From the IMG/VR virus record IMGVR_UViG_3300018719_000003, positions 1-64,000 of that record: a DNA stretch of 64,000 nt; one strand, 5' to 3'. How positions within the stretch are numbered: the stretch's first letter is position 1; each line of letters starts with the position of its first letter. Below the pieces are notes generated by a model. The model did no database searches. It was not told the origin of the DNA and saw only the letters and a list, made by a program, of their open reading frames with translations. Shown here in pieces: positions 26 to 52,146 of the stretch. The DNA is from a virus. Made by a program: the position numbers and the translations under genes.

Positions 26-2716
26 GTGAGGCTTGGGACTGCTGAACAAGCAGCGATCGCCCAGTTCCCCTTTTACTCCCAAGCCATCAGCCCCAACACC
101 AATACATCACTAGGGGTTGACCTTCGGGGTGAAGCTAAACGAATCAACAGCACAACCAGGGAAACAGCGGTGACCGGAACTCCGGTCGGTGGCTTTCTGG
201 CGTCAGTCAACCCAACTCGATTAGTTAAGAACGCTCTTGAAGTTGCAACACTTACCAGTGACCAGCAGATTCTACGTGATGACGGTTGGGTGCAAGGTCA
301 GGTTTTGAGCAATGACCGATTACTGAAGTTGGGACTATTTATTAACAACAGTCTGCGGTTCCATATCCAGATTCAGGATAACGGGCACTATGCAGTAGTT
401 GAAGATAGTGTGGTAGTCTTTCTCTCTGGTACGCCGCCTCTGGCTCCCACGTATTTAGTCAATGATGTTTTCAGGGTTGAGTATCAGTCAGGCACTTTAC
501 TTTATCGAAAAAATGGCAATGTGGTTTACACGTCAACTCAGATTCCTTTATACCCTGCTAGGTTACAAGCACAGATTTTAGACTCCACTGTTTCAGCCAA
601 CGGCACCTCATTCAATGATCTAAAGTTGGCAGACGTGATGATTGACGAGCTAGGCAATGTGCAGCCTGTCACTGGCAGTACCACTATCAGGGTGGATGAG
701 GAGGATATCGAGAAATTCACCCCTAGCGATCGCTACAGAGTTAATGGGGTTGACTTCAGCATTATTGATAAAAACGAAAACACGCTAACAGTTGATAAAC
801 CCATCACCGTTGGTGGCAATGATGAAATCTATGCCGTCTACACTGCGAAATTTGAAAACACTCAACCTGTCTCCAGGATTGACTTTAACTTCGTGTTTTC
901 ACTGTGGGGAAGGGACGACAAAGGCAAACTGAAACGCCACGCGATCGCCTTCGATATCTTCATCAAAAAGACAGGCGCACCCAGTTTTACCCGACTCTAC
1001 AGAATCTTCGTCGCCAACAAAAATCAGGGTGAGATTCGGCGTTCACTCAAAATCAAGAATTTACCATTTGGCAAGTATCAATTTGAGTTTCGTTCCCTTG
1101 AAAGAGTATCAGGCGGATTCCCAATTTTGCGATTAAGTGATGGGGGTGCATTGGCTGATACTCCAACTGGGGTGATGATTGATGGCAAGCAAATCATTAT
1201 CGAGACTGAATTTGCCAGCGCCCCTAGTGAATCCAGTGCCAACAAAGACTTAAGTTTTGATGGCAAAGACCAAGTAAGCTCTGAATCTGCACCGCCGGGA
1301 CGAATCACCAGCCTGAATGAAATTACTCTACCTGCTGACTTGGGTCATTCCCGTGTGTCGCGGTATCCCAAGCTTTCGCTACTGGGACTAAAAGCGATCG
1401 CATCTGAGCGCCTCAACGGAACCCCAACCCCCAGCGCATTAATCCAACGAGGGCGAATCGGCTGGCTACTGCTATCGGCGAGTGAGGCGACTCCCGCGTC
1501 TATTCCAACTCAGTTAGTGTGCTTCGGTGAGGATTTCCTCTCATTCGGAATACAGCCAGGCAATAGGATTCGTAATCTAGATAAGAAGCTAGAGGATACC
1601 ATCGTCTCTGTGACAAGCAATACCATTACAACTACACTGGAATTGAATTGGGAACAGGGCGATCGCTTTGTGGTTTACGTCGAAGGCTCAACCTGTTACT
1701 TCCCTGATGTATTGGCTGATGGCATCCGCTCACCAGACGGTGGCTTGTCAGAGTTGGTGGATGCCGACCAAGTAATTGACTACTCCAGCTTCGTAAAGTC
1801 GAAGCGCTTCTGCATAAGGAACGGCTTCTTCTGGGATGGCACGCTGTCAGAACAGACCAACATTATCGAGTGGGCAGAACGAGAAGCGCCCCTTTCGCTG
1901 TTGTTTGCCTCAACGGTAGATGGCAGAATGGCACTGATACCGGAAGAATACGAGCCGCCAGCAGCTACTTTCACCGATAGTGTGATGGAGTCTTATAACG
2001 AAACGCTACTCCAACCCAAGGAGTTCAATCAGGTGACAGTGCGATTCAAAGACGGCAGTGATACCCGCTTCAGGGAGAAGACTGTTACCATTGCGACTCA
2101 AGAAGCATTCAACGGTTTGGAGCCAATCTACGAGGCTCCCACAATTGACGCAATGTCCAGCGTCAGCAATCCCGCGCAAGCTGAACGAATCGGACAAATG
2201 TTTCTTCAGTCATCCCGATTTCAGGACAGGGGAATTAACTTCACCGCCGGACTGCAAGGACTAGGGATTAAACCGGGTTCGCTCGTGGTTGGGGCGTCTG
2301 TCATTACCCAAATACACGCTGAAAGGTCAGGCTTCGTGGTAGCCGTGGAACCCTATGACGAGAATATGCAATCGCAAGTTGTCAAGCTGTCTCAGCCAGT
2401 AGAGGAGGGTTTTGACGGTAGCTATTCGGCATCTATTTATTACATTGACGGCACTACTAATCAGTCGAGTGTCCCCGTGGATACGGTAGACAGGGATGGT
2501 GAAACATGGCTACTGCTGTCAGAGTTGAATGCGCCCGTTAGCCCACCAGGTTTGAATCGAACAGGCGATTATTTAGCCGTAGGCAAGAATTCAGAATTGC
2601 GTCGGGTGTTTAGGGTTGCGGCGATTGAAATACAGTCAGAGTTCAAGTGTACGGTTGCGGCAACCCGATGGGATGAGCGGATGCTGGGAAGCGAGGGGTT
2701 GGTGACGATATTATGA
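26..2716 (+). CDS. Tail tip / host-specificity protein, lambda gpJ-like (probably 5' truncated by the window edge)
   Basis: 896-aa ORF whose frame stays open back to base 2. 'YPKLSLLGLKAIASERLNGTPTPSALIQRGRI' and the following region resemble the conserved core of J-family central tail fibre proteins (by eye). Confidence 0.6.
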   Translation: MRLGTAEQAAIAQFPFYSQAISPNTNTSLGVDLRGEAKRINSTTRETAVTGTPVGGFLASVNPTRLVKNALEVATLTSDQQILRDDGWVQGQVLSNDRLLKLGLFINNSLRFHIQIQDNGHYAVVEDSVVVFLSGTPPLAPTYLVNDVFRVEYQSGTLLYRKNGNVVYTSTQIPLYPARLQAQILDSTVSANGTSFNDLKLADVMIDELGNVQPVTGSTTIRVDEEDIEKFTPSDRYRVNGVDFSIIDKNENTLTVDKPITVGGNDEIYAVYTAKFENTQPVSRIDFNFVFSLWGRDDKGKLKRHAIAFDIFIKKTGAPSFTRLYRIFVANKNQGEIRRSLKIKNLPFGKYQFEFRSLERVSGGFPILRLSDGGALADTPTGVMIDGKQIIIETEFASAPSESSANKDLSFDGKDQVSSESAPPGRITSLNEITLPADLGHSRVSRYPKLSLLGLKAIASERLNGTPTPSALIQRGRIGWLLLSASEATPASIPTQLVCFGEDFLSFGIQPGNRIRNLDKKLEDTIVSVTSNTITTTLELNWEQGDRFVVYVEGSTCYFPDVLADGIRSPDGGLSELVDADQVIDYSSFVKSKRFCIRNGFFWDGTLSEQTNIIEWAEREAPLSLLFASTVDGRMALIPEEYEPPAATFTDSVMESYNETLLQPKEFNQVTVRFKDGSDTRFREKTVTIATQEAFNGLEPIYEAPTIDAMSSVSNPAQAERIGQMFLQSSRFQDRGINFTAGLQGLGIKPGSLVVGASVITQIHAERSGFVVAVEPYDENMQSQVVKLSQPVEEGFDGSYSASIYYIDGTTNQSSVPVDTVDRDGETWLLLSELNAPVSPPGLNRTGDYLAVGKNSELRRVFRVAAIEIQSEFKCTVAATRWDERMLGSEGLVTIL
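170..187. repeat. Palindrome family copy P1 (GTGACCGGA-AC-TCCGGTC)
   Basis: Read directly. Lies in frame inside the gpJ-like CDS and encodes VTGTPV. Confidence 0.85.
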
Positions 2717-2728
2717 TACGGCATATAC

Positions 2729-2938
2729 CTAATCCGGCACATACCGCTTCAAGTCTCCCACCGTACAGCCATACCGCTTACACAGGATATCTAGTATGCG
2801 ATCGCTCACGGTATTGTGGGGCTTATTCATCATCCACCGGCAGGTGCTTTCAGCTAACCCAGTCTCCTTAGCTAGCTGCATTGCATCTTTTACCTGGCAG
2901 TGGGTTGTGAGATATTCCTTCACTGTGTTGATAATCAT
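2729..2938 (-). CDS. XRE/Cro-CI-type helix-turn-helix regulator
   Basis: 69 aa. 'VKDAMQLAKETGLAESTCRWMMNK' looks like an HTH, and the C-terminal 'ILCKRYGCTVGDL' is typical of short XRE-family proteins. Divergent from the plus-strand small-gene block. Confidence 0.6.
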   Translation of the reverse strand: MIINTVKEYLTTHCQVKDAMQLAKETGLAESTCRWMMNKPHNTVSDRILDILCKRYGCTVGDLKRYVPD

Positions 2939-2940
2939 TG

Positions 2941-7359: not shown

Positions 7360-7592
7360 TATGCGGTTTCCTCAATCAAAGTAAATCGCTGCATCTGCAC
7401 ACCCTCATGGACAACAACCTCGCAAAACATATCGAGCGGTCGTAGCCAGATACCGCCGCTAGCGTTTCTGTACACGACCATTTGCTCCTCTGTTTCTGAG
7501 TGCCGACCGATGCCGATTACTTCGTATATTCCGCCTTTAAAGTGGCGATAGATTCCGTTAGTTGCTTCTAATTCTGTAGTAGTTTCTGTCAT
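7359..7592 (-). CDS. DUF1653-like protein
   Basis: 'GIYRHFKGGIYEVIGIGRHSETEEQMVVYR...WLRPLDMF' matches the DUF1653 pattern. The ATG at 7592 overlaps the upstream stop as ATGA. Confidence 0.6.
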   Translation of the reverse strand: MTETTTELEATNGIYRHFKGGIYEVIGIGRHSETEEQMVVYRNASGGIWLRPLDMFCEVVVHEGVQMQRFTLIEETA

Positions 7593-7882
7593 AATTTGTC
7601 CTGGGTGTCGTAAATTCCCCGGTAGCTGCAACCAATAGACTTTAGTGTTACTGCGTGATTGGCTAACATCCTCACCTCTTGTATTTTTCGGAGGAGTGTT
7701 GTCAATTCCGCAGGGTCGTCAATTACTTCAGATAGTGCGATCGCAAAATCTTCTGACGCAGTGTTGATAACATTGTATTTGTTGCGAGTTTCTTCCTTTG
7801 TTGTGGGGTGATAAACAAATAAATCTCTAAGCTTTAACCTGTTAATTTTCAAGCAATTATCTGTTCCTTTTTTACTGGACAT
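7589..7882 (-). CDS. Hypothetical protein
   Basis: 97-aa ORF, apparently translationally coupled to the downstream gene. Confidence 0.5.
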   Translation of the reverse strand: MSSKKGTDNCLKINRLKLRDLFVYHPTTKEETRNKYNVINTASEDFAIALSEVIDDPAELTTLLRKIQEVRMLANHAVTLKSIGCSYRGIYDTQDKL

Positions 7883-7912: not shown

Positions 7913-9055
7913 TCAACCAAGGCAGTCGGCTGCTACTTGTTCACAGGCGTTAATTCGGGGCGAACCGACCCTACTGCACAATTCATCAGGTGCATTTGCC
8001 AGATTGATAGACGCTTGCAAATCTCTGTCCTCTGTATGCCCACAATTAGGGCAAACGAAAATCCTATCAGATAGCTTGAGTCCTGAATGCTTTTCCCCGC
8101 ACTTGCGACACATCCGAGACGAAGGGAACCACCGATCCACTATGTCTAACGAACAAGCAAAACTAGGCGCTTTGTAGGTTAACTGGCGACGGAATTCGTA
8201 GAACCCTAAATCGCTAATCGCTTTAGATAATTTACGATTAGCGATCATCCCGGACACGTTCAAGTCTTCAATGCGGATGTGACCATATTTCTGGCAAATA
8301 GATGTCGTTGTCTTATTCAGAAAATCCTTACGCTGATTTGCGATATCACGATGCAACCGCGCCAATTTTTTGAAATATTTCTTGGCTTTGTTAGAAGCTT
8401 TCTCTCCCGTGCGCCTATTCCCGAATTGTTTAAGCGGTTTTGGAGCTTCTCTTTCGGTTCCATCGCTAATCGTTGCGAATGTTTTAACCCCTAGGTCGAT
8501 ACCAACAGGTTCAACTACTTCGTGCAAGATTGGGGGAATTCTTTCTGCATCGACACAGAATGAAACAAACCAGTCACCCGCTTCACAAGACAGTGTGAAA
8601 GTTTGAGTTATATAGGATTCCCTTAAAGACTCTTGTAGTCGAAATGTTCCTAGCGTTGGTATCTTGATAGTCTTCCCCTCTTTAACAACCCTTTTGCCGT
8701 TACTGTCGTAAACAGTAAACGAACAATTGTTTTTACGACGCTTGTAATTGGGGCTTTTGCCTAATCCATTCCGCCATCTTTTGAGTGATTCACCTAACGC
8801 CTGAAAAGCGGTTTGATAAACTTTTGAGGATAACTGTTGAGTCCATTCAAAACCCTCGGTTTTCTTGGTGACATTAGTAAAGCACTTTTTGATAGCAGCT
8901 AGTCGCTTGGTGTCAGAGGCTTTTATCCCGGCGTCAATTGACTGCCAAAACAATGAAAGACCGTAGTTGTACACGAACCGAGAAAAGCCAGCGTGAGAGC
9001 TAAATTTCGCCTTTTCTTGACTATTTAGTTTTAAACGGCGTTTAACTGCAAACAT
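7913..9055 (-). CDS. tnpB: TnpB (OrfB) RNA-guided nuclease, RuvC triad apparently intact
   Basis: 380 aa. Contains 'VGIDLGVKTF' (D), 'IRIEDLNVSGM' (E), zinc finger 'CRKCGEKH...CPNCGHTEDRDLQASINLA' (D). Confidence 0.85.
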   Translation of the reverse strand: MFAVKRRLKLNSQEKAKFSSHAGFSRFVYNYGLSLFWQSIDAGIKASDTKRLAAIKKCFTNVTKKTEGFEWTQQLSSKVYQTAFQALGESLKRWRNGLGKSPNYKRRKNNCSFTVYDSNGKRVVKEGKTIKIPTLGTFRLQESLRESYITQTFTLSCEAGDWFVSFCVDAERIPPILHEVVEPVGIDLGVKTFATISDGTEREAPKPLKQFGNRRTGEKASNKAKKYFKKLARLHRDIANQRKDFLNKTTTSICQKYGHIRIEDLNVSGMIANRKLSKAISDLGFYEFRRQLTYKAPSFACSLDIVDRWFPSSRMCRKCGEKHSGLKLSDRIFVCPNCGHTEDRDLQASINLANAPDELCSRVGSPRINACEQVAADCLG

Positions 9056-9318: not shown

Positions 9319-9585
9319 TCAATCTTTCCTTGCTCTTAGCGAGTTCAAGCATTCTTGAAGTGCTGCAAGAGCCTCCTCGTTTTCAGGACAGGGAAAGTCT
9401 TTGTGTTTGTGCTCAAGCTCATCCAAACACGCCTCAAGTACTTCAATCAAAAACGCACCGTTCCTGCCTTGCTCTTGAAGCGAACCCCTCTGCCAAGCAA
9501 TGCAGTATCCGATTCCGTAGCTTTGACCTCCGTCTGGCTTCCCCTCGGTTTCCCAGTGGTGAGAATTCCATTGTGTGTCTGTCAT
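9319..9585 (-). CDS. Hypothetical small phage protein
   Basis: 88-aa ORF that overlaps the upstream gene stop by 4 nt. The antisense plus-strand ORFs here look spurious. Confidence 0.55.
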   Translation of the reverse strand: MTDTQWNSHHWETEGKPDGGQSYGIGYCIAWQRGSLQEQGRNGAFLIEVLEACLDELEHKHKDFPCPENEEALAALQECLNSLRARKD

Positions 9586-14782: not shown

Positions 14783-15070
14783 ATGCCCACACCTCCCAAA
14801 CCCAAGCCGACCAAGATTCGCCGTAAGCCAGTCCCGCCTGGACTACGCTTTGATGTCTTGCAGCGAGATAAGTTCAGATGCAGAGCTTGCGGCGTTGAGG
14901 CGAAAGATGCGCGGTTGGAAATCGATCACATTGTCCCAGTCTCCAAAGGCGGGTTGACTACCTTGAAGAACTTGCAGACTCTGTGCGGTAGCTGCAACAG
15001 AGGAAAAGCTGCGAAGCTGAAGTCGGTTAAATCGGTAGCGAAGAAGGTTAGAAAGAGTGCAGCCAAGTGA
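14783..15070 (+). CDS. HNH endonuclease
   Basis: 'FRCRACGVEAKDARLEIDHIVPVSKGGLTTLKNLQTLCGSCNRGK' is a canonical HNH motif. The stop TGA lies inside palindrome P2. Confidence 0.85.
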   Translation: MPTPPKPKPTKIRRKPVPPGLRFDVLQRDKFRCRACGVEAKDARLEIDHIVPVSKGGLTTLKNLQTLCGSCNRGKAAKLKSVKSVAKKVRKSAAK

Positions 15071-15085
15071 CCGGAACTCCGGTCA
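15068..15085. repeat. Palindrome family copy P2 (TGACCGGA-AC-TCCGGTCA)
   Basis: Read directly. Its first three bases are the HNH stop codon. Confidence 0.85.
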
Positions 15086-21356: not shown

Positions 21357-21375
21357 GACCGGAGACTCCGGTCAC
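21357..21375. repeat. Palindrome family copy P3 (GACCGGAG-A-CTCCGGTCAC)
   Basis: Read directly. Bases 21372-21374 are the TGA stop of the minus-strand gene 21372..21692. A T-run follows on the plus strand, 59 nt after the TerL stop. Confidence 0.85.
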
Positions 21376-23862: not shown

Positions 23863-23881
23863 GTGACCGGAGACTCCGGTC
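23863..23881. repeat. Palindrome family copy P4 (GTGACCGGAG-A-CTCCGGTC)
   Basis: Read directly. Starts on the first base after the TGA stop at 23860-23862. Confidence 0.85.
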
Positions 23882-26456: not shown

Positions 26457-27099
26457 GAGTAATCGCAAGCAAATCTACGTTCTGCTACGAAACGCAGTAA
26501 TCGCGTTTGTGGTATTCCTTGCGTTGCTAGAGTCTATCCATTTAATCGACTGGAGGCGTATTAATTGGGAGGTAGTAGCGCCTACCATCTTGAGCCTTGC
26601 CTGTAGCCTAGGAATTTGGGGTGTTGACCGTTACGGAAAAAATCGTGAGCAAAAATTAGCTCTTGCTGCTGCAATTAGGGCAGAGCAAGACGCAGCGATA
26701 AGACAGCGACAGGAAGCGAACCTTGCTCTAATTAATGGACTTCAGGAGAGCCTAGACTCGTCCGTAATTACCCTAGCTACCTTCGAGGATGAGCTGATGT
26801 CCATGAAGGCGACAGATACCGAAACGCTGAAGCGATTATCTGAGCTAGAGAGAGACTTGCAAACGCACCGAGAGAAGTACGCCCATACTGGCGCTGAGAA
26901 TGCATTGCGATCGCAGCAGAGGGCACTCTACAAACTACGCGCTCAACTGGACGGACTTTCGGGGCGTCATGAAACCGAGAAGCGGATCGATACTGTACTA
27001 GAGGCGGTGAACCAAACGAATGCACAGATGGAGCGGTTGCGGCATATCGTTAGGGATTTGTCGGGATGCATTGATGGTGTAGAGGAAACAGAAAAGTGA
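26449..27099 (+). CDS. Membrane-anchored coiled-coil protein
   Basis: 216 aa with two N-terminal hydrophobic segments followed by long coiled-coil-like sequence. The stop TGA lies inside palindrome P5. Confidence 0.6.
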   Translation: MDKSNRKQIYVLLRNAVIAFVVFLALLESIHLIDWRRINWEVVAPTILSLACSLGIWGVDRYGKNREQKLALAAAIRAEQDAAIRQRQEANLALINGLQESLDSSVITLATFEDELMSMKATDTETLKRLSELERDLQTHREKYAHTGAENALRSQQRALYKLRAQLDGLSGRHETEKRIDTVLEAVNQTNAQMERLRHIVRDLSGCIDGVEETEK

Positions 27100-27116
27100 C
27101 CGGAGACTCCGGTCAC
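27096..27116. repeat. Palindrome family copy P5 (GTGACCGGAG-A-CTCCGGTCAC, full 21 nt)
   Basis: Read directly. Bases 27097-27099 are the stop codon of 26449..27099. Confidence 0.9.
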
Positions 27117-27163
27117 TTGATTCTTGAGAATTTCTCTTCTAAGGATTGGATGTAGGTTAAACC

Positions 27164-32920: not shown

Positions 32921-33023
32921 AAGCGATCGCGCATGAACAGATCTCCGGTCAGTCCGGGAAGTAAGCTAAAATAGCGTTAACTACAAAAACGCTGAACAGT
33001 TCTCAAGTGAAGCAAGCTCAACT

Positions 33024-33066: not shown

Positions 33067-34515
33067 TCATTTAGAAACAAAATGAAGCCATAAATCCCCG
33101 TCAGTTCCGCAAGTCTGTTTCATCATTTCGTAGGAGTATGTGAGCTTTGCCCCGCTGCGATCGCAATCATAACCACTTGAATACCACTCGCCGTAGGGAT
33201 CGTTCACAACGAATCCTTTTTCGTTGTAGCCAATGATGGCGATGATGTGTCCAGTCCGGGTGAAGTAGCCGTGAACAATGAGTGGATTCCCCCCGGCTAA
33301 ATGAGTCTTGGCATTTGCCCACTTTGCATCAAACTGAAAGTCATCTTTGCAACCGTAGGCTTCCAAGACTTTCTTTAAGTCTGTCGGTACGTGTCGATCT
33401 AAGCCGTTGCTGTAGCAGTACTGGTTTAACTCATCCTCAAGTTGTATTCCTTGACTATTGCGAATTGGATGCCCATAGTAGGCGAGACACATTGCGACTG
33501 AGGTTACATTGCACGTTCCGTAAGGGTCGCCAGCGTTATCCAATTGGCTTAGGTAAGGAACCTTCAGAATGACCGAGCTTGATGGTATTGCCAAAGGTTT
33601 CGGCATTGCAAGTTGAGCCGCTGTCGGAGTTGGGTTGGTCGTAGCAATCGGCAGTGACGGATAAACTTCGACGTGCGGACTGGGTGAGGCTGGAGTACCA
33701 TACACGTACCATTCACCCTCTGACACTGCAAAGCTTCGCATTAACCCCGCACGTTCCCAAGCTATCCTCTGAGTTTCTAGCACGACTTTATAGTGTCTGC
33801 CCACTGATTGGAAGTCCAGAGCTTTGAGATACACGCCTTCTGGCAGTTCAACCTTTTTTTCAGGAGGAAGGCTAGCCGCGCTTGACGGTTCTTTTTTGAG
33901 AAAGGTGTTGCAACGGGTTCGGAAGACAGCAGGATTTGGCATAGTGGATGAGGTGAGGTGACCGGAGACTCCGGTCACTGAGCTTTGTTGAAGTGCGATC
34001 GCCGCAACCGATCGCAATAATTCTTTCTCCCATTGTGCCGCCAACTTTGCGATATGCTCGGCTCTATCCGTCCCGTTGATTATGCGTCGAGCATTGTAGT
34101 AATCGCACTTTTGGCTGTTAATGTAATCACTTAATTTGACTCCTGCGAACAGTCCTTGAGTCATGCCCAGAATAAGAATGCGATCACTCACGTCTTCTTT
34201 CAGTGCCAATTCTGGATTTCCCTCCAAATCAATCCCCAGCAACTCTCCGAATACGCGATAGTTGCGTCTGCCAGTAATCTGTGACGCGCCTCTGCCCTTG
34301 AATCGCCTACCATCCCCTGGCTGGGTATTGCCTAAATCTTCGCGCCATTCGTAATCGTCACCACTTGCCCACTCCTCAATCGCCTGGTATGTTCCAGCAG
34401 TTTCATGCTCTACCGTGGCGAGTACATACGCTGTTTGCTGTGGGGTAAGGTTGGCAGTGGCACAGGCGGCGAGAATGCTTTGTTTGCTCATGGGGGTAAA
34501 TATGGAAAAAGCCAA
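33067..34515 (-). CDS. Endolysin: GH19 lysozyme/chitinase-like domain, central domain, and C39-like cysteine peptidase domain
   Basis: N-terminus 'VEHETAGTY...LGNTQPGDGRRFKGRGASQITGRRNYRVFGELLGIDLEGNPELA' is the GH19 signature. C-terminus 'PYLSQLDNAGDPYGTCNVTSVAMCLAYYG...GHIIAIIGYNEKGFVVNDPYG' is Peptidase_C39_2-like. Confidence 0.8.
   Translation of the reverse strand: MAFSIFTPMSKQSILAACATANLTPQQTAYVLATVEHETAGTYQAIEEWASGDDYEWREDLGNTQPGDGRRFKGRGASQITGRRNYRVFGELLGIDLEGNPELALKEDVSDRILILGMTQGLFAGVKLSDYINSQKCDYYNARRIINGTDRAEHIAKLAAQWEKELLRSVAAIALQQSSVTGVSGHLTSSTMPNPAVFRTRCNTFLKKEPSSAASLPPEKKVELPEGVYLKALDFQSVGRHYKVVLETQRIAWERAGLMRSFAVSEGEWYVYGTPASPSPHVEVYPSLPIATTNPTPTAAQLAMPKPLAIPSSSVILKVPYLSQLDNAGDPYGTCNVTSVAMCLAYYGHPIRNSQGIQLEDELNQYCYSNGLDRHVPTDLKKVLEAYGCKDDFQFDAKWANAKTHLAGGNPLIVHGYFTRTGHIIAIIGYNEKGFVVNDPYGEWYSSGYDCDRSGAKLTYSYEMMKQTCGTDGDLWLHFVSK
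33958..33978. repeat. Palindrome family copy P6 (full 21 nt), in frame in the endolysin interdomain linker
   Basis: Encodes VTGVSGH within 'ALQQSSVTGVSGHLTSSTMP'. Confidence 0.9.
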
Positions 34516-34772: not shown

Positions 34773-35543
34773 GTGAGAAATTCTATCATTCCGCATGACT
34801 TCAAGGGAAATTTGATTCAGCAGTTATCTGAAGACACCTTGATAAATGAGATTTTGATTCCAAAGGGCTATGTCAATGCCACTCAAATCTGTCAAACAAA
34901 CGGGAAGCGCTGGGCAAAATACATGGAGTTCAGTAAGACTCCTGCGTTCCTAGAGGCACTGGAAGAGGTCAGTCCCCCAGAAGGACTGACCCATATTATC
35001 GTTATTTCAGAAGGTGCTAACGAGTACCGAGGGACTTGGGTTTGCTTGCCAGTAGCAATGAATCTTGCTCAGTGGTGTTCCCCAATCTTTGCCGCATGGG
35101 CAGCTATAGTGTTGAGTGCTGTTATTAGTGGTGACTATGAAGCCTTAACCGAGGAAGCTGCTTTCGCTCAAGCCAAACTTCAAGAAATATGGGATAAGGT
35201 AAGGGCTGAGGGTATTTTGACGCGGCGGGGGCTAACTAATGCAATCCAAGACTGGTATCAGCGCAATCCGGGCGCAACTAGCCGCCCTCCGTTTGTTATG
35301 TATGCCCAGACTACCAATGCCATCTATCAAGCGTTGTGGGATATGACAGCGCTGGAGTTAGAGGAGTATCTAGAGTGCGATCGCCACGAATCTCGCAACA
35401 ATCTTTCAGCTACTGACTTAAGACATCTGGAACGCGCTGAAGCTGCGGTGATGGATTTCATTGATGAGGACAACATCAAGCCTATAGATGCGGTGGCACT
35501 GTCTAATATCCGGCGTAGAAAAGAAGCGCCAACCACCAAGTAA
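34773..35543 (+). CDS. KilA-N domain protein (paralogue 3)
   Basis: 'EILIPKGYVNATQICQTNGKRWAKYMEFSKTPAFLEAL...GTWVCLPVAMNLAQWCSPIFAAW'. GTG start. Confidence 0.65.
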   Translation: MRNSIIPHDFKGNLIQQLSEDTLINEILIPKGYVNATQICQTNGKRWAKYMEFSKTPAFLEALEEVSPPEGLTHIIVISEGANEYRGTWVCLPVAMNLAQWCSPIFAAWAAIVLSAVISGDYEALTEEAAFAQAKLQEIWDKVRAEGILTRRGLTNAIQDWYQRNPGATSRPPFVMYAQTTNAIYQALWDMTALELEEYLECDRHESRNNLSATDLRHLERAEAAVMDFIDEDNIKPIDAVALSNIRRRKEAPTTK

Positions 35544-35565: not shown

Positions 35566-35946
35566 TTACGAGCCACCTTCCACGGGTGGCTTTTTTGTTA
35601 GCGCTGCGATCGCTTCCCTAATATCTGCAATCGTATAAGGCTTTGTCAGGTACAAATCTGCCCCCAGCTTCTCCCCAACTTCTTTGTCAGACTTCGACAC
35701 CATTGCCGTCAAGTAGCAAAATGGTGTCATAATGCCACGGCTACGCATCTCCAAAAGGATTGTGTAGCCTGTAATCCCAGGCATAATTACATCACAGAAA
35801 ACTAAGTCAAACACCTCCGACTTGATCGCTGCCATTGCCTTTTGCCCAGAATCACAGCCGACTACTTCGTGTCCTTCTGCTTCTAGTAGTTCAATCAATC
35901 CTTCAAGGACTAAAGCTGTGTCTTCAATTACCAATATTTTTAACAA
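35566..35946 (-). CDS. Single-domain response regulator (CheY-like receiver)
   Basis: 'ILVIEDT...DLVFCDVIMPGITG...YLTA...KP' contains the canonical acidic pocket, phospho-Asp, Thr and Lys. Confidence 0.85.
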   Translation of the reverse strand: MLKILVIEDTALVLEGLIELLEAEGHEVVGCDSGQKAMAAIKSEVFDLVFCDVIMPGITGYTILLEMRSRGIMTPFCYLTAMVSKSDKEVGEKLGADLYLTKPYTIADIREAIAALTKKPPVEGGS

Positions 35947-38596: not shown

Positions 38597-38615
38597 TGAC
38601 CGGAGTCTCCGGTCA
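38597..38615. repeat. Palindrome family copy P7 (TGACCGGAG-T-CTCCGGTCA)
   Basis: Read directly. Bases 38613-38615 are the TGA stop of the minus-strand glycosyltransferase gene. Confidence 0.9.
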
Positions 38616-44658: not shown

Positions 44659-44713
44659 TGGTTTCCTGCTCCTTAAATATTGGCTAAAAGTGCGGTCACT
44701 AAGCTTCGCCGAA

Positions 44714-44732
44714 GTGACCGGAGTCTCCGGTC
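44714..44732. repeat. Palindrome family copy P8 (GTGACCGGAG-T-CTCCGGTC)
   Basis: Read directly. Lies between two genes of the minus-strand operon. Confidence 0.9.
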
Positions 44733-47094: not shown

Positions 47095-47119
47095 GAAAAA
47101 AGCCACCCATTGAGGTGGC
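47095..47119 (-). terminator. Intrinsic terminator of 47147..47800
   Basis: The minus strand reads GCCACC-TCAATG-GGTGGC followed by TTTTTT. Confidence 0.6.
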
Positions 47120-47146
47120 TCGTGATTGTCAACGAGAACCGAAATC

Positions 47147-47800
47147 TTAAGCGGCAATTCTGTCTAGCACTTCACCCCAAGGTAATCCCGCGTCAAGCAA
47201 CACCGCTGCCGTGTTTTGTGCCATTGCCAGCCGTGCTAACTTTTCAGGAGGAAGTTTGTCACGAGTCCCACTCTCTACTCCTTGGCTATCCTGAAACTGT
47301 TTGATGTACTTTCCCCACTCACTAGGTTTTGGGTTGACGTTGCGTTGGATAGAGTCAGTTAAGACGGGGTGAAAGTCGAGACGGGTAATCTGTCGCCACT
47401 TTAAAAACTCTTGTCGTTCCTCTTCCTCGAACTTAACTTTGAACGCATCTGAAAAAAGTTGGTGTAGAGATAAGCCAATCAAGTTGTCACAGATAGACTC
47501 CGCCACAGGGTTACCCGCCTTGTCTAACTTGCGAAGCAATCGCTCAAAATCCACAAGAGTTAGTACATTAACAGCTTTAGGATTAAGAGGCGTTTTCCAT
47601 TTTTGGTGGGACTGAAAAACTATGCCTAGCAAGCTTTCTAGCTGTTTAAAGGAGCGGTTTGGTGGGACTAAATCTAGTGCCGCAACTTGAGGTACAGCAA
47701 TACCAAACTCTTCCAGATCTGACCTTAAACCCTCAAAACTTAGATATCCAATATTTACAGGAGCTATAATTGCGCGGATGATAGAATTCTTCATGGTCAT
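47147..47800 (-). CDS. Hypothetical protein
   Basis: 217-aa ORF. Confidence 0.6.
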   Translation of the reverse strand: MTMKNSIIRAIIAPVNIGYLSFEGLRSDLEEFGIAVPQVAALDLVPPNRSFKQLESLLGIVFQSHQKWKTPLNPKAVNVLTLVDFERLLRKLDKAGNPVAESICDNLIGLSLHQLFSDAFKVKFEEEERQEFLKWRQITRLDFHPVLTDSIQRNVNPKPSEWGKYIKQFQDSQGVESGTRDKLPPEKLARLAMAQNTAAVLLDAGLPWGEVLDRIAA

Positions 47801-47973
47801 CTCCTAGGTGTTTTCTAGTTGTTGAGCCAGCGGTTGATTGGTGGTTAGAACGCCAGTCAACCGCGTCGTTTTAATTATCCCACGAATGGCGATCGCACTC
47901 ACCAGTTCTGGCTACTTTTTGATATCTGCGATGTGCCATAGGTTAATGTTTTTACCCATAGCGGGATTATTCA

Positions 47974-49923
47974 GTGACGCTATGGGGTTTTTTAAAGTAT
48001 CTATTTCTGGGGATAGCTAAGATAAACCCTAAACTATGTGACGGGTTATTGTTAGTGAAAATCCTCAAAGAAATTAGGCGAATCGAGTCGAACGCTAACA
48101 ACGACGATTCGCACCGCAATGTAATCAATAAAATTTATTCACAAAAAATCCAAGGTAGTGCGGCGGCAAGCAATGGTGAAGTGCCACCTGAACAGCCAAT
48201 CATCCCCCCTCCACCTGAAGCCAAGCCTCGTGTAGTAGGTTCAGGTTCTGGGACGGAAGCACCACCAGAGCAGCCAGTAACACCCTCTCAGCCTCAAGCG
48301 ACTTCGCTGTTATCTGATGACGAACAGGTGATTCAGGCGATCGCACTTGGGCAGCGTCGTCAAGTCGAAGCTGAGTACTCTGCCAAGGTCAAGGCTTTAG
48401 AGGATCAGATCACTGCCGCGCAAGAGCGGATTGAGCAAGAAGCTAACGCCAGAGAACAAGTAAGGCAAGAATCAGCCGCAGCATTGGAAGCTCAAGAGCG
48501 AAGATTTAAGCTAATTCAAGCGGCTAGCAATGCACTTGGCTTTGGCGATTATGTACCAGGCTTGAACATTGAATCAGCAGCGGTTCCCACGGATTCTTTC
48601 ATTGCCCCAATGTCAATGAGAGGCGGCATCAGCGGAAGCGATGCTGTGCGTGAGTATCAGAAAATTTTTGATGACAAAGCTGCTTCGCCTCGTGTTCAGG
48701 TTGCCAGTCCAACGGGTTCAGTAGAAACCCAGATGGACACTCGTAATCTTGATAGCTTTCTGATTGAAAACCGAGCGTCCTTAGTCAAAGGCTTTGAGAA
48801 TTATGCCAAGAATAAGCTGGGATTACTAAGAGGCGGCAACGTTTCGATGGAGCAGTCAGCCGCTGCCACTGGTTTTAGCAATATCCCCGGCGCATTCCTG
48901 ACATTCCTTTCGTCTGAAATGCGATTGACGCACCAAGCTAGATTTGTCCTCTGGCAGTTCTGCAACAACCGTGTAAATTTGGGTGTTCCTCCAGGGCAAA
49001 CAGCCTCGGTTCCTCGGATGCTGCTACTAGAAGAAGGGGATGTCCCCAGCGACTGGCATTTGCTTCCTGGTGTGCCCTTAACAGACCAGCGCCAGCCGTT
49101 GAATGCCACATCAGAGCCGATTTTCATCAGAGAAAACGGTGTCGGTCGTGATGGGAAAGTTCGCCCAGTATCAATCCCAGAATTCATCACTGCTTACTCG
49201 TTGATGGATTTGTTGACCGTCTTGCGTCAGCGGCTTCGTTATAACTACGAGTTGTTTGAGGACATCTCAATCAGCAATCTTTGGTTTCAATCCACCATCA
49301 CTGCCTACAACAACGGCGGCGACATGGTTTTGACCCCAGCGCAGGTTACGGCTAACGGTGGTGGGCAGTTCACAGTTGATTTTTTGGGTAGCCTTGCCGC
49401 TTATATGGCAGACGAGCTGAAAGTCCCACCTTACGATAACTGCTACGGATTGGTGCTAAACGCGACCCAGCTGGAGCAACTAAACCGCGATCCAAAGTTG
49501 AATGATCGCTGGTATGAAGGCTCACCAGTTAACGAGTTGACGAATTACTTGGCAATGGAGACAGGACAACCGATAACTGGACGAGTCTCTGGCTACGTTG
49601 GAATGATCTCTAACTTCCATATCTTCCGTCAGAACAGCTTTGGTGTTGGTCAACCTGGCTCTCGTGGCGTTCAGACAGAGACGTTAGGCGGTACGCCACG
49701 GACTACAAATACAGCTTTCGCTTTCGGTATGGGAACTGTGGGCAGAGCGCAAGCACTCCCGTTCAACATCCGCGAAATCATTGTCAATGACGGTCGTAGC
49801 CGCGACTTTTATTGGCTCTCACACGAGGGATTTGGAAGCCTCGATGTCGATAGCGCAATCTCACCAGGACAGCAATCACGGGTGATTCAGGTGCGGACGA
49901 GTAAAACAAAAGTGGGGGCGTAA
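47974..49923 (+). CDS. Putative major capsid protein with an N-terminal Pro-rich and coiled-coil scaffold-like region
   Basis: 649 aa. Residues about 110-190 are coiled coil ('VEAEYSAKVKALEDQITAAQERIEQEANAREQVRQE'). The C-terminal 400 aa or so resemble an HK97-fold capsid (by eye), and the gene sits upstream of connector and tail genes. The start codon is uncertain. Confidence 0.5.
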   Translation: MTLWGFLKYLFLGIAKINPKLCDGLLLVKILKEIRRIESNANNDDSHRNVINKIYSQKIQGSAAASNGEVPPEQPIIPPPPEAKPRVVGSGSGTEAPPEQPVTPSQPQATSLLSDDEQVIQAIALGQRRQVEAEYSAKVKALEDQITAAQERIEQEANAREQVRQESAAALEAQERRFKLIQAASNALGFGDYVPGLNIESAAVPTDSFIAPMSMRGGISGSDAVREYQKIFDDKAASPRVQVASPTGSVETQMDTRNLDSFLIENRASLVKGFENYAKNKLGLLRGGNVSMEQSAAATGFSNIPGAFLTFLSSEMRLTHQARFVLWQFCNNRVNLGVPPGQTASVPRMLLLEEGDVPSDWHLLPGVPLTDQRQPLNATSEPIFIRENGVGRDGKVRPVSIPEFITAYSLMDLLTVLRQRLRYNYELFEDISISNLWFQSTITAYNNGGDMVLTPAQVTANGGGQFTVDFLGSLAAYMADELKVPPYDNCYGLVLNATQLEQLNRDPKLNDRWYEGSPVNELTNYLAMETGQPITGRVSGYVGMISNFHIFRQNSFGVGQPGSRGVQTETLGGTPRTTNTAFAFGMGTVGRAQALPFNIREIIVNDGRSRDFYWLSHEGFGSLDVDSAISPGQQSRVIQVRTSKTKVGA

Positions 49924-50981: not shown

Positions 50982-51405
50982 CGTGCCTCGCATTAATACG
51001 TACTGGCTGTATAGCCGATTGACAGCCGGACGTGCCACTGGTCGATTGAGGTTAGTTGAGTATCCCCAAATAGTTCAACACAATCCTTATTCAGTTCCTA
51101 TACCAGAACGCCCTCAGATTATTCTTGATATCCCTTGCGCGGCAATCAAGCTAATCAATGGTGGCAAGTCAGGAGATCGCAATCCATCCGGCAATCTAGA
51201 CGCCAAAATGTATCGGCTGATGGTTAACCGAATTGATGACCCGACTCTCTTTAAGATTGGGAGTTTTGCTGTTGTAACTTGGGCAGAGCAAACCATCAAG
51301 GGAGTGCTAGACCGAGTTGACCCTAAAGCAGTCTCTGAGCGCTTCCACTTGTTTATAGATGCCGCTCAAAATGTTCCCTTTGACCCTGTTAATTTAGGAG
51401 CCTAA
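50971..51405 (+). CDS. Hypothetical head/tail completion protein
   Basis: The internal ATG at 50971 has an AGGAG RBS. Confidence 0.45.
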   Translation: MPTSVPRINTYWLYSRLTAGRATGRLRLVEYPQIVQHNPYSVPIPERPQIILDIPCAAIKLINGGKSGDRNPSGNLDAKMYRLMVNRIDDPTLFKIGSFAVVTWAEQTIKGVLDRVDPKAVSERFHLFIDAAQNVPFDPVNLGA

Positions 51406-51407
51406 AA

Positions 51408-51767
51408 ATGACAGAAATCGCAACAACGATTAGCAAGCAGACAGGGAGTAAAATCAATCCGATCACTCTGGTAGCAGGGGAAAAATACACCTACAAAAAC
51501 ACTGCGTCAACCGTCTTAGTGGTCGAGCATTACAGCGCAGCCGTGCCTGCGGGGGGTGCTGGTATCCATATAATCACCCCTGAAAAAGCAGCGTCTTACC
51601 TAGATATTGAAGACCCAGATTATGTAATAGCACCGGGGGAAGCTAGGGTCTTTGGTGCTTTACCCAGTACAACCTTTGGGTCAGTTGTTGAGTTTATGGC
51701 ACTAGGCGCTGATGTTGCGGCGGGTTTATTAAAAGCCTATGTGCTAGAGGTGCGTTCTTATGGCTAA
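51408..51767 (+). CDS. Hypothetical protein
   Basis: 119-aa ORF. Confidence 0.55.
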   Translation: MTEIATTISKQTGSKINPITLVAGEKYTYKNTASTVLVVEHYSAAVPAGGAGIHIITPEKAASYLDIEDPDYVIAPGEARVFGALPSTTFGSVVEFMALGADVAAGLLKAYVLEVRSYG

Positions 51768-52146
51768 TGTCACCATCAACCAGCAAGCACTAAATAGTTT
51801 TGTTGCAGGGCTAGCCAACCAATTTGGTGAGGCTGTGGGTGACACTGTGCCGTTTGTGCAGTCGCTGACGCCGATTGATACCAAGCGCCTTTATAACAGT
51901 ACCAGAGCAACCGATCCGATAGTGTCAGGCAAGCTGATTGAGTGTGACATCGTAGCGGGTGGTATTTCGCTCTATGGAGAAATCAGAGAACAGGAAATTA
52001 GGCGGGATGTTGATTACGCCTATTGGGTAGAAATTAAGAATCCCTACATTCGCTCTAACCTGCCTGCTATTGGAAGCGAAATTATTGCCAACCTGAAAGC
52101 AAAACGACCGGAGTTCCGGTCGTTAGGAATGGGGAGGCAAAACTAA
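51760..52146 (+). CDS. HK97 gp10-like tail completion protein
   Basis: 'VQSLTPIDTKRLYNSTRA' resembles the gp10-family 'PvdTGrLrnS' motif. Contains palindrome P9 near its 3' end. Confidence 0.4.
   Translation: MANVTINQQALNSFVAGLANQFGEAVGDTVPFVQSLTPIDTKRLYNSTRATDPIVSGKLIECDIVAGGISLYGEIREQEIRRDVDYAYWVEIKNPYIRSNLPAIGSEIIANLKAKRPEFRSLGMGRQN
52105..52122. repeat. Palindrome family copy P9 (CGACCGGA-GT-TCCGGTCG)
   Basis: Read directly. In frame, encoding RPEFRS, 8 codons before the stop of 51760..52146. Confidence 0.85.

What the first reader, a model, noticed from the sequence alone, without database searches (positions are those of the whole stretch)
170..52122. Nine-copy palindrome family (GTGACCGGAG-W-CTCCGGTCAC) dispersed over the phage region
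**Copies found**
- 170-187
- 15068-15085
- 21357-21375
- 23863-23881
- 27096-27116
- 33958-33978
- 38597-38615
- 44714-44732
- 52105-52122

**Subtypes.** Six copies share the core GACCGGAG-W-CTCCGGTC, with up to 10-bp arms around one central base. Three share GACCGGA-AC/GT-TCCGGTC.

**Why it matters.** A 16-21-nt palindrome recurring nine times in 64 kb cannot be chance, and it is distinct from HIP1. Six copies sit at or just after gene ends and three sit in frame inside genes. As RNA it could fold into an 8-bp stem with a 5-nt loop.

**Possible roles**
- A REP-like mobile palindrome.
- A 3'-end or terminator hairpin.
- An operator for one of the many dimeric DNA-binding proteins encoded here (KilA-N x3, XRE, RHH x4).
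- A nuclease or packaging recognition site.
Basis: seen in the sequence. Interest (0 to 1): 0.8.

Follow-up and report, generated by a model that had tools for sequence, protein, structure and literature searches.

The report
Conserved gene-end palindrome sites in cyanophage
A roughly 107-kb virus of a cyanobacterium carries at least eleven copies of one 16/17-base palindrome, held almost unchanged at the ends of its genes in related viruses, which looks like a set of docking sites for an unidentified sequence-reading protein.

Summary
All nine copies are present exactly where reported, against zero expected by chance.

**What the window is.** It is the middle of a 107.7-kb HIP1-rich siphophage contig, not a prophage inside host DNA. 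The phage holds at least 11 perfect copies and 2 near-copies.

**What the family is.**
- There are only two sequences, each found in either orientation: GACCGGAG-W-CTCCGGTC, and a 16-mer lacking one base next to the centre.
- Both sit in a symmetric ~25-bp consensus, AASY…RSTT.

**Conservation in relatives at about 80% identity.**
- Every copy that a relative covers keeps its position.
- The arms are 137/140 identical, against 79% identity in the flanks.
- The centre flips or switches between 16 and 17 bases.
- One copy is coding in three phages and intergenic in a fourth, so the DNA is conserved, not a peptide.

**Position.** Copies sit at stop codons (7 of 10 within 70 nt of a gene end, P≈2.5e-4), often supply the TGA, and often mark seams between exchangeable gene blocks.

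**Against a terminator or structure-only hairpin.** There is no U-tract, no stem covariation, and the genome has many other, sequence-diverse terminators. A sister clade uses a different palindrome, GTCTAATATTAGAC, in the same post-stop placement.

**Verdict.**
- Best reading (confidence ~0.42): dispersed sites for a symmetric DNA-binding protein.
- The closest analogue is the unexplained 7-3-7 repeats of Cluster O mycobacteriophages.
- The host genome could not be checked.

The parts
172..187 (.). 16-mer copy GACCGGAACTCCGGTC inside the 1098-aa tail (GpJ-like) gene, encoding VTGTPV in a variable loop.
   Evidence: Found. Gene call. The ortholog in L185 (84% identity) carries the same 16-mer with the centre flipped. 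The protein alignment shows a variable, indel-rich loop.
15069..15084 (.). 16-mer copy. The TGA stop of the HNH endonuclease gene (14783-15070) lies in its left arm. It sits 197 nt before the next gene (15282).
   Evidence: Orthologs: L138 has a 17-mer with one C>T, and L210 has the 16-mer in flipped orientation.
21357..21373 (.). 17-mer copy 59 nt after the large terminase gene (19706-21298), in a convergent gap. Homology with L138 breaks 10 nt to its right, where L138 has about 400 extra nt.
   Evidence: PHROG 2 terminase large subunit, E=1.4e-24.
23865..23881 (.). 17-mer copy 2 nt after the TGA stop of a 133-aa gene (23461-23862), at or before the uncertain start of the next gene.
27094..27118 (.). 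17-mer copy with 12-bp arms (AAGTGACCGGAG-A-CTCCGGTCACTT). The TGA stop of a 216-aa gene (26449-27099) lies in its left arm. It sits in a convergent gap of 292 nt.
   Evidence: The ortholog in L177 is the 16-mer.
32935..32950 (.). Decayed relic GAACAGATCTCCGGTC (2 mismatches) at a block seam after the endolysin region. Orthologous variants are GACCAGAGGTCTGGTC in L177-L179 (both arms changed, still palindromic) and GACCGGACTTCTGGTT in L180.
33957..33979 (.). 17-mer copy inside the linker between the GH19 and C39 domains of the 474/482-aa endolysin (minus strand), encoding TGVSGH.
   Evidence: The relative P0101/L177 has the 16-mer there (TGVPVT, a different frame), and L180 has the 17-mer.
38598..38614 (.). 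17-mer copy overlapping the stop (TCA at 38613-38615 on the plus strand) of the 297-aa glycosyltransferase gene (minus strand). It sits in a convergent gap that also holds a separate canonical bidirectional terminator.
44687..44700 (.). 'Empty' partner site AAGTG-CGGTCACT, 29 nt left of the 44716 copy. In relative L165 this position carries the full palindrome and the other position is empty. The difference is the same 11 nt, ACCGGAGWCTC.
   Evidence: The GTGCGGTC motif is unique in 80.7 kb.
44716..44732 (.). 17-mer copy between two minus-strand genes, 7 nt after the stop of the 378-aa gene and 57 nt before the start of the 574-aa gene.
   Evidence: L166 has a 16-mer with one mismatch at the same place.
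52106..52121 (.). 16-mer copy in the non-conserved tail of a 128-aa head-tail module gene, 25 nt before the next ATG. Perfectly conserved in L165, L166 and L167, and lying after the stop codon (intergenic) in L165.

Best explanation
The palindromes are a clade-specific set of cis-acting recognition sites in a roughly 107-kb HIP1-rich cyanobacterial siphophage. Purifying selection holds them at fixed places, nearly always at the stop codon of a gene or at the seam between exchangeable gene blocks.

**The site.** It is a symmetric ~25-bp element, AASY-GACCGGAG-W-CTCCGGTC-RSTT. It exists in two fixed forms: the 17-mer core, and a 16-mer lacking one base beside the centre.

**Most likely mechanism.**
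- The site is read base by base on duplex DNA by a symmetric (dimeric) protein, probably phage-encoded.
- That would make it a dispersed operator set of the kind seen as the 7-3-7 repeats of Cluster O mycobacteriophages.
- Because the sites are anchored to gene ends and not to promoters, I infer they punctuate transcription, by roadblock or pausing between gene blocks, or otherwise organise the genome.
- The hairpin the transcript can form (-10 to -17 kcal/mol) would be a secondary contributor.

**Shown versus inferred.**
- Shown: existence, copy set, positional conservation, base-specific constraint, symmetry and gene-end anchoring.
For: **(1) Sequence, not structure, is constrained.**
- All 56 half-sites from 28 sites share arms GACCGGA, with only 4 deviations in total and no covarying stems.
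- Position -1 is a pyrimidine in 56/56 half-sites and position -3 is A in 45/56.
- Positions -1 and +1 are complementary in only 15/28 sites, against 53% expected if independent.

**(2) The flank preferences are mirror-symmetric when sites are oriented by the upstream gene.**
- -4/-3 are A in 10/16 and 13/16 sites; +3/+4 are T in 14/16 and 12/16.
- T is not enriched from +5 on (5/16), so there is no U-tract.

**(3) Purifying selection.**
- In 10 orthologous pairs the arms are 137/140 identical against 79% in 100-nt flanks.
- P=4e-11, or 3e-7 using one pair per site.
- Every window copy covered by a relative is retained: 172, 15069, 21357, 27098, 33960, 44716 and 52106.

**(4) Conservation is independent of coding.**
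- 52106 is coding in three phages and intergenic in L165.
- The endolysin copy reads TGVSGH or TGVPVT.

**(5) The genome already has many strong terminator hairpins of diverse sequence.** One lies in the same gap as copy 38598.

**(6) A sister clade at 66-71% amino-acid identity lacks this motif.**
- It has GTCTAATATTAGAC in nearly every short gap, 5-30 nt after stops, including right after the terminase homolog.
- Its hairpin is only -2.9 kcal/mol, so a shared logic is unlikely to be RNA stability.

**(7) Precedent.** Cluster O mycobacteriophages have about 34 copies of TGTTCGG-N3-CCGAACA. The arms are invariant, the centre is variable, there is no orientation to transcription, and about a third are in genes. 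The authors predict a dimeric DNA-binding protein (PMC4351075).
Against: - No binding protein is identified. Nearby small proteins give only weak RHH or DUF6364 hits.
- The half-site spacing differs by 1 bp between the 17-mer and the 16-mer, and both forms are stably kept. Rigid dimers usually do not tolerate this.
- The centre is not free. Only GAC/GTC or AC/GT occur, which a non-contacted spacer does not predict.
- Tight anchoring to stop codons even in long gaps (27098, 38598) is not an obvious need of an operator.
- In three unambiguous cases the arm substitutions give G·U on the sense strand (L138 twice, L177 1051). This hints at an RNA-level constraint, although n is tiny and C>T bias confounds it.
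- Only 80.7 of about 107 kb of the phage was readable, and the host genome not at all.
Confidence: 0.42

Rival explanations
1. RNA-level gene-end hairpin. Once transcribed, the palindrome folds into a stable stem-loop right after the stop codon. It then ends, pauses, processes or protects the upstream mRNA, as a terminator, a 3' stabiliser or an RNase site. Because it is symmetric it would work in both directions.
For: - 7 of 10 copies have their centre within 70 nt of a gene 3' end (P=2.5e-4), and 5 are within 16 nt.
- Relatives show the same placement, from -2 to 31 nt from the stop.
- Predicted RNA stability is -9.5 to -16.9 kcal/mol.
- Some copies look like full terminators: L003 AAAACC-pal-GGTTTT, L138 pal-ATTTTTTT, L177 pal-GGTTTTCG. 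The simple scan flags 15068, 21357, 27118(-), 33957 and 44715.
- A 16/17 loop-size change is harmless to a hairpin.
- Three arm substitutions give G·U on the sense strand.
Against: - No U-tract in the family consensus: T is at background from +5 on.
- Stems never covary across more than 25 sites, whereas the genome's other terminators all differ in sequence.
- Outer positions are constrained to Y/R without pairing.
- A canonical terminator sits beside copy 38598.
- Copies inside the tail, endolysin and (in relatives) tape-measure genes would be harmful as terminators.
- The innermost G and C of the 17-mer are invariant although they would be loop bases.
- The sister-clade palindrome in the same placement is too weak to be a structural hairpin (-2.9 kcal/mol).
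Confidence: 0.22
2. Recombination or endonuclease site. The palindrome is the target of a phage nuclease or recombinase, or simply portable micro-homology, at which gene blocks are cut and rejoined. Genes would then behave as 'ORF plus 3' palindrome' cassettes.
For: **Palindromes sit exactly where homology between relatives breaks.**
- L003 5112, where the window has a TnpB block.
- Window 21357 versus L138, with +400 nt.
- L012 1569 versus window 72966, with a 2.2-kb block containing Csx3 inserted before it.
- L177 13321 and L180 5302, matching the window 32935 relic.
- The tape-measure variable region in L217 and L213.

**Other support.**
- The stop codon often lies inside the arm, at 5 independent sites.
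- The centre shows flips and one-base losses at orthologous sites. All 16/17 differences are compatible with repeated 17-to-16 loss.
- One spacer shows a neat 11-nt filled/empty swap.
- The genome is rich in HNH, GIY-YIG and T5orf172 nucleases.
Against: - No recombinase or integrase appears in 80.7 kb of precomputed Pfam calls.
- No consistent adjacency of nuclease genes to sites.
- Mosaic seams fall at gene boundaries in phages generally, so the coincidence may be passive.
- Most copies are positionally stable across the clade.
- The Cluster O authors saw no link between their repeats and indels.
Confidence: 0.14
3. Selfish or host-derived small repeat. This would be a REP/REPIN-like or SDR-like mobile palindrome of the host cyanobacterium that has spread into phage intergenic DNA, as HIP1 has. 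It would have no function for the phage.
For: - The phage mirrors host-type repeats. It has 88 HIP1 sites in 64 kb.
- A related lineage (L173) carries STRR-like heptamer arrays in the equivalent gaps, for example after the terminase homolog.
- Another clade carries a different palindrome.
- One site has decayed and one shows a filled/empty swap.
- Very small mobile hairpin repeats are known in cyanobacteria (Elhai 2008, as cited in PMC4390886).
Against: - No insertion polymorphism among relatives: all covered copies are orthologous.
- Arms are far more conserved than flanks, the opposite of neutral decay.
- No GTAG/CGTC tag.
- No Y1 or RAYT transposase in 80.7 kb.
- Every HIP1-rich contig with the motif in IMG/VR that was compared with the window is a relative of this phage.
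- The JGI metagenome scan with the 19-mer gave 17 single hits, none in HIP1-rich DNA.
- No match of about 20 nt or more in 50,697 phage or 72,556 plasmid records.
- None in 20.9 kb of HIP1-rich Microcoleus sp. ZQ-A2 chromosome.
Confidence: 0.12

Closest known systems
17-bp dyad repeats of Cluster O mycobacteriophages (TGTTCGG-N3-CCGAACA; Cresawn et al. 2015, PMC4351075)
   Same: - Siphophage genome with a 7-bp + 3 + 7-bp architecture.
- Arms essentially invariant.
- The centre carries no orientation relative to transcription.
- Dispersed over the whole genome, with a mix of intergenic and in-gene copies.
- Not tied to promoters, function unknown, no integrase seen.
   Different: - Different sequence and host phylum.
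- About 1 copy per 8-10 kb here, against about 1 per 2 kb.
- Strong anchoring to stop codons and to mosaic seams, which the Cluster O authors saw little or none of.
- A second fixed 16-bp form.
- The centre is restricted to two sequences rather than loosely variable.
Dispersed repressor operators: stoperators of Cluster A mycobacteriophages (named in PMC4351075), and phiC31 CIRs and P1 C1 operators (from my own knowledge)
   Same: - One protein-binding sequence repeated 10-30 times across a phage genome.
- Often in short intergenic gaps.
- Specificity differs between related phage groups, as with the switch to GTCTAATATTAGAC in the sister clade.
   Different: - Stoperators are asymmetric and oriented with transcription, whereas these sites are symmetric and unoriented (A versus T centre 7:6 relative to the upstream gene).
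- A temperate lifestyle, repressor or integrase has not been found here.
REP/REPIN elements with RAYT transposases; GTAG/CGTC-tagged palindromes (PMC3116915, PMC3733652)
   Same: - Short GC-rich hairpin-forming palindromes, mostly after genes.
- Sequence-conserved within one genome.
   Different: - No GTAG/CGTC tag, no RAYT, no doublets and a low copy number.
- Located in a phage.
- Positionally conserved under selection rather than showing insertion polymorphism.
Intrinsic (bidirectional) terminators
   Same: - A GC-rich stem-loop just after the stop codon.
- A few copies have A/T tracts.
   Different: - Family consensus lacks a U-tract.
- All copies have an identical stem.
- Canonical terminators of other sequences coexist in the same genome and even in the same gap.
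Integron attC sites
   Same: A palindromic site immediately following, and sometimes overlapping, the stop of a promoterless ORF. Gene blocks differ on one side of it.
   Different: - attC sites are 57-141 bp and imperfect, with extrahelical bases, and need an IntI integrase.
- Here the site is a 17-25-bp perfect palindrome and no tyrosine recombinase was found.

Membership tests
Cluster O-type dispersed dyad repeat (descriptive class, function unknown) | Two invariant 7-bp inverted arms separated by about 3 bp. | tested here: met
   GACCGGA-N3-TCCGGTC in the 17-mers. 52 of 56 arms are identical. A 2-bp-spaced form also exists.
Cluster O-type dispersed dyad repeat (descriptive class, function unknown) | Many copies spread through the phage genome, both intergenic and in genes, with no orientation relative to transcription. 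| tested here: met
   At least 11 perfect copies plus 2 near-copies in about 107 kb. Three or four lie in ORFs. The centre A/T relative to the upstream gene is about 7:6 (my tally).
Dispersed operator / stoperator set | A cognate sequence-specific DNA-binding protein (repressor). | not testable with these tools
   Only weak RHH (27637-27897), DUF6364 (23461-23862), KilA-N and Bro-N candidates were found.
Dispersed operator / stoperator set | Asymmetric site oriented with transcription (stoperators). | tested here: not met
   The site is a perfect palindrome, and its flank preferences are mirror-symmetric.
Intrinsic terminator | GC-rich stem-loop downstream of a gene. | tested here: met
   -9.5 to -16.9 kcal/mol. 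7 of 10 copies are within 70 nt of a 3' end.
Intrinsic terminator | U-tract directly after the stem on the transcribed strand. | tested here: not met
   In 16 sites oriented by the upstream gene, T is enriched only at +3/+4, mirroring A at -3/-4, and is at 5/16 from +5 to +8. Individual copies such as L003, L138 and L177 do have T-runs.
REP / REPIN | GTAG or CGTC tag at one end of the palindrome. | tested here: not met
   The flank consensus is AASY/RSTT, with no GTAG or CGTC.
REP / REPIN | Associated RAYT (Y1 transposase), and high copy number in the cellular genome. | tested here: inconclusive
   No Y1_Tnp hit among precomputed Pfam calls over 80.7 kb. The host genome is unknown.
Small dispersed repeats of cyanobacteria (SDR, Elhai 2008) | Precise presence/absence of the unit between otherwise identical sequences (mobility). 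| tested here: inconclusive
   All covered copies are orthologous. The only case is the 11-nt filled/empty swap at 44687/44716 versus L165.
Integron attC | IntI integrase, and a 57-141-bp imperfect site with R/L boxes. | tested here: not met
   No Phage_integrase hit in 80.7 kb. The site is a 17-25-bp perfect palindrome.
ParB/KorB-type dispersed palindromic sites (parS, OB) | A ParB-family protein encoded by the element. | tested here: inconclusive
   No ParBc hit in the 80.7 kb read. About 27 kb of the phage was not seen.
HIP1 | The octamer GCGATCGC. | tested here: not met
   Different sequence. HIP1 is present separately, 88 times.

The most novel reading that the evidence does not exclude
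The palindrome is the working site of a cut-and-rejoin system in a lytic cyanophage. A phage nuclease or recombinase would act at the centre of the site, so that genes behave as 'ORF plus 3' palindrome' cassettes that can be swapped between co-infecting phages.

One mechanism would then explain:
- the stop codons inside the arms;
- the seams of mosaicism at the sites;
- the centre flips;
- the repeated one-base loss from 17 to 16;
- the 11-nt filled/empty swap;
- the replacement by a different palindrome in the sister clade.
Probability: 0.1. Interest if true: 0.8.

Novelty: new member of a known kind. Interest (0 to 1): 0.5.

Why it matters
**A second example of an unexplained phage feature.**
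- Dispersed, invariant dyad repeats have been noted in a few phage groups, and for the closest analogue (Cluster O) the function is still unknown.
- This is an independent example in cyanophages.
- It comes with comparative evidence the earlier case lacked: purifying selection on the arms, conservation irrespective of coding, a symmetric 25-bp consensus, anchoring to stop codons and mosaic seams, and replacement by another palindrome in a sister clade.

**It makes the question testable.** The two clades give a natural specificity swap with which to hunt for the protein that reads the site.

**If the sites punctuate transcription or mediate block exchange,** they would be a general organising device of large siphophage genomes. 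That would be relevant in hosts said to lack Rho (from my own knowledge, not tested here).

**If instead they are a host repeat,** the finding is ordinary.

Tried and rejected
**Searches that gave nothing.**
- Megablast of 24 kb against INPHARED phages: no match.
- tRNA scan and Rfam scan of the window: nothing.
- Literature search for the motif strings: no paper.
- The vB_AphaS-CL131 paper does not mention such repeats.
- Elhai 2008 could not be read.

**Attempts to survey other genomes.**
- The JGI metagenome scan with the 19-mer gave 17 single hits, none HIP1-rich. The samples holding this phage appear not to be in that collection.

**Attempts to identify the host.**
- Via endolysin homologs: Microcoleus vaginatus MAG and a 7.25-Mb JGI genome. 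Both loci are HIP1-poor, so they are probably not the host, and neither has the motif.
- Via TnpB homologs: the closest named cellular copy is 80% identical, in Microcoleus sp. ZQ-A2. Its 20.9-kb locus is HIP1-rich but has no copy. This is weak evidence, since only about 2-3 copies would be expected at phage density.

**Other ideas tested.**
- *Copies as insertions into proteins.* This is not demonstrable. They lie in variable loops, linkers or tails, and a 58% homolog of the tail protein has a similar TGT-V peptide.
- *Link to TnpB / IS605 ends.* No copy lies at the two TnpB genes in the window. Only in L003 does a copy occupy the equivalent place.
- *Avoidance of isolated half-sites.* GACCGG occurs 3 times outside copies against 6 expected by a Markov model. 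Not significant.
- *Strand-specific G·U analysis.* Too few cases to decide.
- *Chance.* Rejected.

Full report
**1. Observation**

Exact searches recover the six 17-mers (21357, 23865, 27098, 33960, 38598, 44716) and the three 16-mers (172, 15069, 52106). No match occurs in any of 100 dinucleotide-preserving shuffles. Allowing three mismatches to the 19-mer adds nothing.

The two 'subtypes' reduce to two sequences:
- GACCGGAGACTCCGGTC, whose reverse complement has T at the centre.
- GACCGGAACTCCGGTC, whose reverse complement is ...GGAGTTCC.... This is the 17-mer minus the base next to the centre.

**2. What the window is**

- The window has 88 HIP1 octamers and 43-51% G+C.
- It encodes the following:
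  - a GpJ-like tail protein;
  - an HNH nuclease;
  - a large terminase (19706-21298; PHROG 2, E=1.4e-24);
  - a capsid protein 33% identical to that of Cylindrospermopsis phage Cr-LKS4;
  - a 3073-aa tape-measure-like protein;
  - a GH19+C39 endolysin;
  - two TnpB genes;
  - several GIY-YIG, KilA-N and Bro-N genes.
- Exact-protein look-ups place the window inside a 107,687-bp ENA contig. A related phage assembles to about 103 kb in three data sets. The whole window is therefore phage, not a prophage in a host chromosome.
- Joining the fetched flanks gives 80.7 kb (window -6985 to 73744). This holds a tenth perfect copy at 66802, 1-mismatch copies at -6287 and 72966, and a 2-mismatch relic at 32935.
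- A further perfect copy of the same phage lies in L190.

**3. Where else the motif occurs**

- In IMG/VR the 17-mer and 16-mer occur more than once per contig only in HIP1-rich contigs. Every HIP1-rich contig that was compared with the window is the same phage or a relative. All other hits are single and mostly GC-rich, as chance predicts.
- The JGI metagenome scan with the 19-mer gave 17 single hits, none HIP1-rich.
- BLAST of the extended palindrome found nothing in 50,697 phage or 72,556 plasmid records. A local control showed the query is not masked.
- The host was not identified. A 20.9-kb HIP1-rich chromosome piece of Microcoleus sp. ZQ-A2, which holds the closest named cellular TnpB relative, has no copy.

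**4. Comparative anatomy**

Relatives at about 72-93% nucleotide identity (L003, L138, L165-L167, L177-L180, L185, L210, L213, L217) cover seven window copies, and all seven are retained in place.

*Arm conservation.* Across ten orthologous pairs the 14 arm positions are 137/140 identical, while 100-nt flanks are 79% identical. P=4e-11, or 3e-7 with one pair per site.

| Site | Window | Relatives |
|---|---|---|
| 15069 | 16-mer | flipped 16-mer in L210; 17-mer in L138 |
| 27098 | 17-mer | 16-mer in L177 |
| 33960 | 17-mer | 16-mer in L177; 17-mer in L180 |
| 44716 | 17-mer | 16-mer in L166 |
| 172 | 16-mer | same form, centre flipped |
| 21357 | 17-mer | same form, centre flipped |

*Conservation does not depend on coding.*
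- At 52106 the palindrome lies in a non-conserved C-terminal tail in three phages but after the stop codon in L165. The sister clade's ortholog lacks it.
- In the endolysin linker the 17-mer reads TGVSGH and the 16-mer reads TGVPVT.

The DNA is conserved, not the peptide.

*One site has decayed.* At 32935 the window and two relatives each carry a different degenerate version, one of them a compensated double mutant.

**5. Position**

- Using the deposited gene calls, 7 of 10 copies have their centre within 70 nt of a gene 3' end (P=2.5e-4 against random placement), and 5 are within 16 nt.
- A 409-aa ORF ends 1 nt before 66802.
- In relatives the distances are -2 to 31 nt.
- At five independent sites the TGA stop is the TGA of the GTGACC arm.
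- This holds even where the gap is long: 292 nt at 27098 and 130 nt at 38598.

Palindromes also coincide with breaks of homology between relatives:
- L003 5112;
- 21357 versus L138;
- 72966 versus L012, with a 2.2-kb block containing Csx3 inserted before it;
- 32935 and its orthologs;
- the tape-measure variable region.

In one spacer the element occupies alternative neighbouring positions in two phages. The difference is the same 11 nt, AAGTG[ACCGGAGWCTC]CGGTC.

**6. Structure or sequence?**

The RNA hairpin would be stable, at -9.5 to -16.9 kcal/mol. Several results argue against a structure-only element:

- The genome has many other strong gene-end hairpins, all of different sequence, including a canonical bidirectional terminator in the same gap as 38598.
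- Across 28 sites the stems never covary.
- The flanks carry base-specific preferences. Position -1 is a pyrimidine in 56/56 half-sites and position -3 is A in 45/56. Positions -1 and +1 are complementary no more often than chance, 15/28 against 53% expected.
- Oriented by the upstream gene, the preferences are mirror images (A at -4/-3, T at +3/+4), and T falls to background from +5. There is no U-tract.

The unit is thus a symmetric ~25-bp sequence, AASY-GACCGGAG-W-CTCCGGTC-RSTT. This is the signature expected of a site read base by base on duplex DNA by a symmetric protein.

Points that do not fit neatly:
- The 1-bp spacing difference between the two forms.
- The restriction of the centre to two sequences.
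- The stop-codon anchoring.
- Three arm substitutions that give G·U on the sense strand.

**7. Sister lineages**

- Phages with 66-71% identical terminase and capsid proteins lack the motif. They carry GTCTAATATTAGAC in almost every short gap of the same operons, 5-30 nt after stops, including directly after the terminase homolog. One copy is a symmetric variant, GTCCAATATTGGAC.
- Their hairpin is only -2.9 kcal/mol.
- Another lineage has heptamer tandem arrays in these gaps, and another has nothing.
- A change of palindrome between clades fits a co-evolving reader protein. The heptamer case keeps a host-repeat origin alive.

**8. Comparison with known systems**

- The closest described thing is the 17-bp repeat of Cluster O mycobacteriophages: 7-3-7, invariant arms, about 34 copies, a third in genes, no orientation, function unknown. 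The authors predicted a dimeric DNA-binding protein (PMC4351075).
- Stoperators differ in being asymmetric and oriented.
- REP/REPIN membership fails on the GTAG/CGTC tag and on any sign of a RAYT.
- attC fails on size and on an integrase.
- Intrinsic-terminator membership fails on the U-tract.

I therefore file this as a new member of the 'dispersed dyad repeat in siphophage genomes' kind. It has unusual extras: gene-end anchoring, two fixed forms, mosaic seams and a clade swap.

**9. Verdict**

- Best explanation: a selected, clade-specific recognition site for a symmetric DNA-binding factor, acting as gene-end punctuation. Confidence 0.42.
- Rivals:
  - RNA 3'-end hairpin, 0.22.
  - Recombination or nuclease site, 0.14.
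  - Host-derived selfish repeat, 0.12.
- Interest is moderate. The phenomenon is real and conserved. Its kind is known, but the mechanism is unresolved both here and in the precedent.

Noticed in passing
window 34600-34790 (minus strand) and 47780-47975 (plus strand): A second repeat of about 115 nt lies upstream of the endolysin and capsid genes. It has conserved blocks (GATAGAATT..., GCCAGC, GCGTCGTTTTAATTATCCCA) around a 14-bp hairpin. The hairpin arms differ between the two copies by compensating changes (GCGGTTGATTGGTG versus GCAGCTGATGAGTG). It is also present in relatives L016 and L011. It may be a late-gene leader, promoter or regulatory RNA.
   Followed up: partly
window 35570-35592 (+) and 47100-47121 (-): Two canonical terminators share the same stem (GAGCCACC...GGTGGCTT followed by TTTT). 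Terminator hairpins are therefore also duplicated within this genome.
   Followed up: no
L168, L169, L171, L172 (IMG/VR 3300036939_000039 and 3300035686_000004): A sister phage clade has a different dispersed perfect palindrome, GTCTAATATTAGAC. There are 7 perfect copies and 4 variants within two mismatches in 15.6 kb, in nearly every gap of the structural and packaging operon. Two copies sit at the tip of longer GC-rich hairpins.
   Followed up: partly
L173 (IMG/VR 3300021392_000010), e.g. 11607-11680: A third related lineage has STRR-like heptamer tandem arrays, (AGGCAGG)n, (AATTCTA)n and (GGGAATA)n, in its intergenic gaps, including right after the terminase homolog.
   Followed up: no
window 7913-9055 (-) and 10079-11686 (-): The phage carries two TnpB-family genes without TnpA. 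The 535-aa one is 43-46% identical to proteins named type V CRISPR-associated C2c8. Relatives carry TnpB genes at other places (L177, L175, L185), so these are mobile within the phage group.
   Followed up: partly
window 7589-7882 (-), 9319-9585 (-); L161 27334-28215: Anti-defence-type genes are present: two weak Acb2/Tad1-hairpin hits, and a Csx3 ring-nuclease-like gene just beyond the window. The Csx3 block is absent from relative 3300041964_000077.
   Followed up: no
window 35566-35946 (-) and 36268-37647 (+): A response regulator and histidine kinase pair is encoded by the phage and conserved in relatives L177, L178 and L180.
   Followed up: no
whole window / 80.7-kb composite: Short palindromes are depleted, suggesting restriction avoidance. 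CCGG occurs 120 times against 244 expected and TCCGGA 3 against 17. GGCCGG occurs 0 times. GACC/GGTC occurs 290 times against 503 expected. HIP1 is at host-like density, 1.4 per kb.
   Followed up: partly
window 65571-66800 equivalent (L161 21049-22278, + strand): A 409-aa ORF ends 1 nt before the 66802 palindrome. In the deposited gene calls it is replaced by a 114-aa call on the opposite strand, which is probably a mis-call.
   Followed up: no
window 19706-21298 versus L171/L172: Gene order differs between clades. In the sister clade the terminase is followed directly by a 304-aa gene and the capsid gene. In the window the capsid gene is 27 kb away from the terminase.
   Followed up: no
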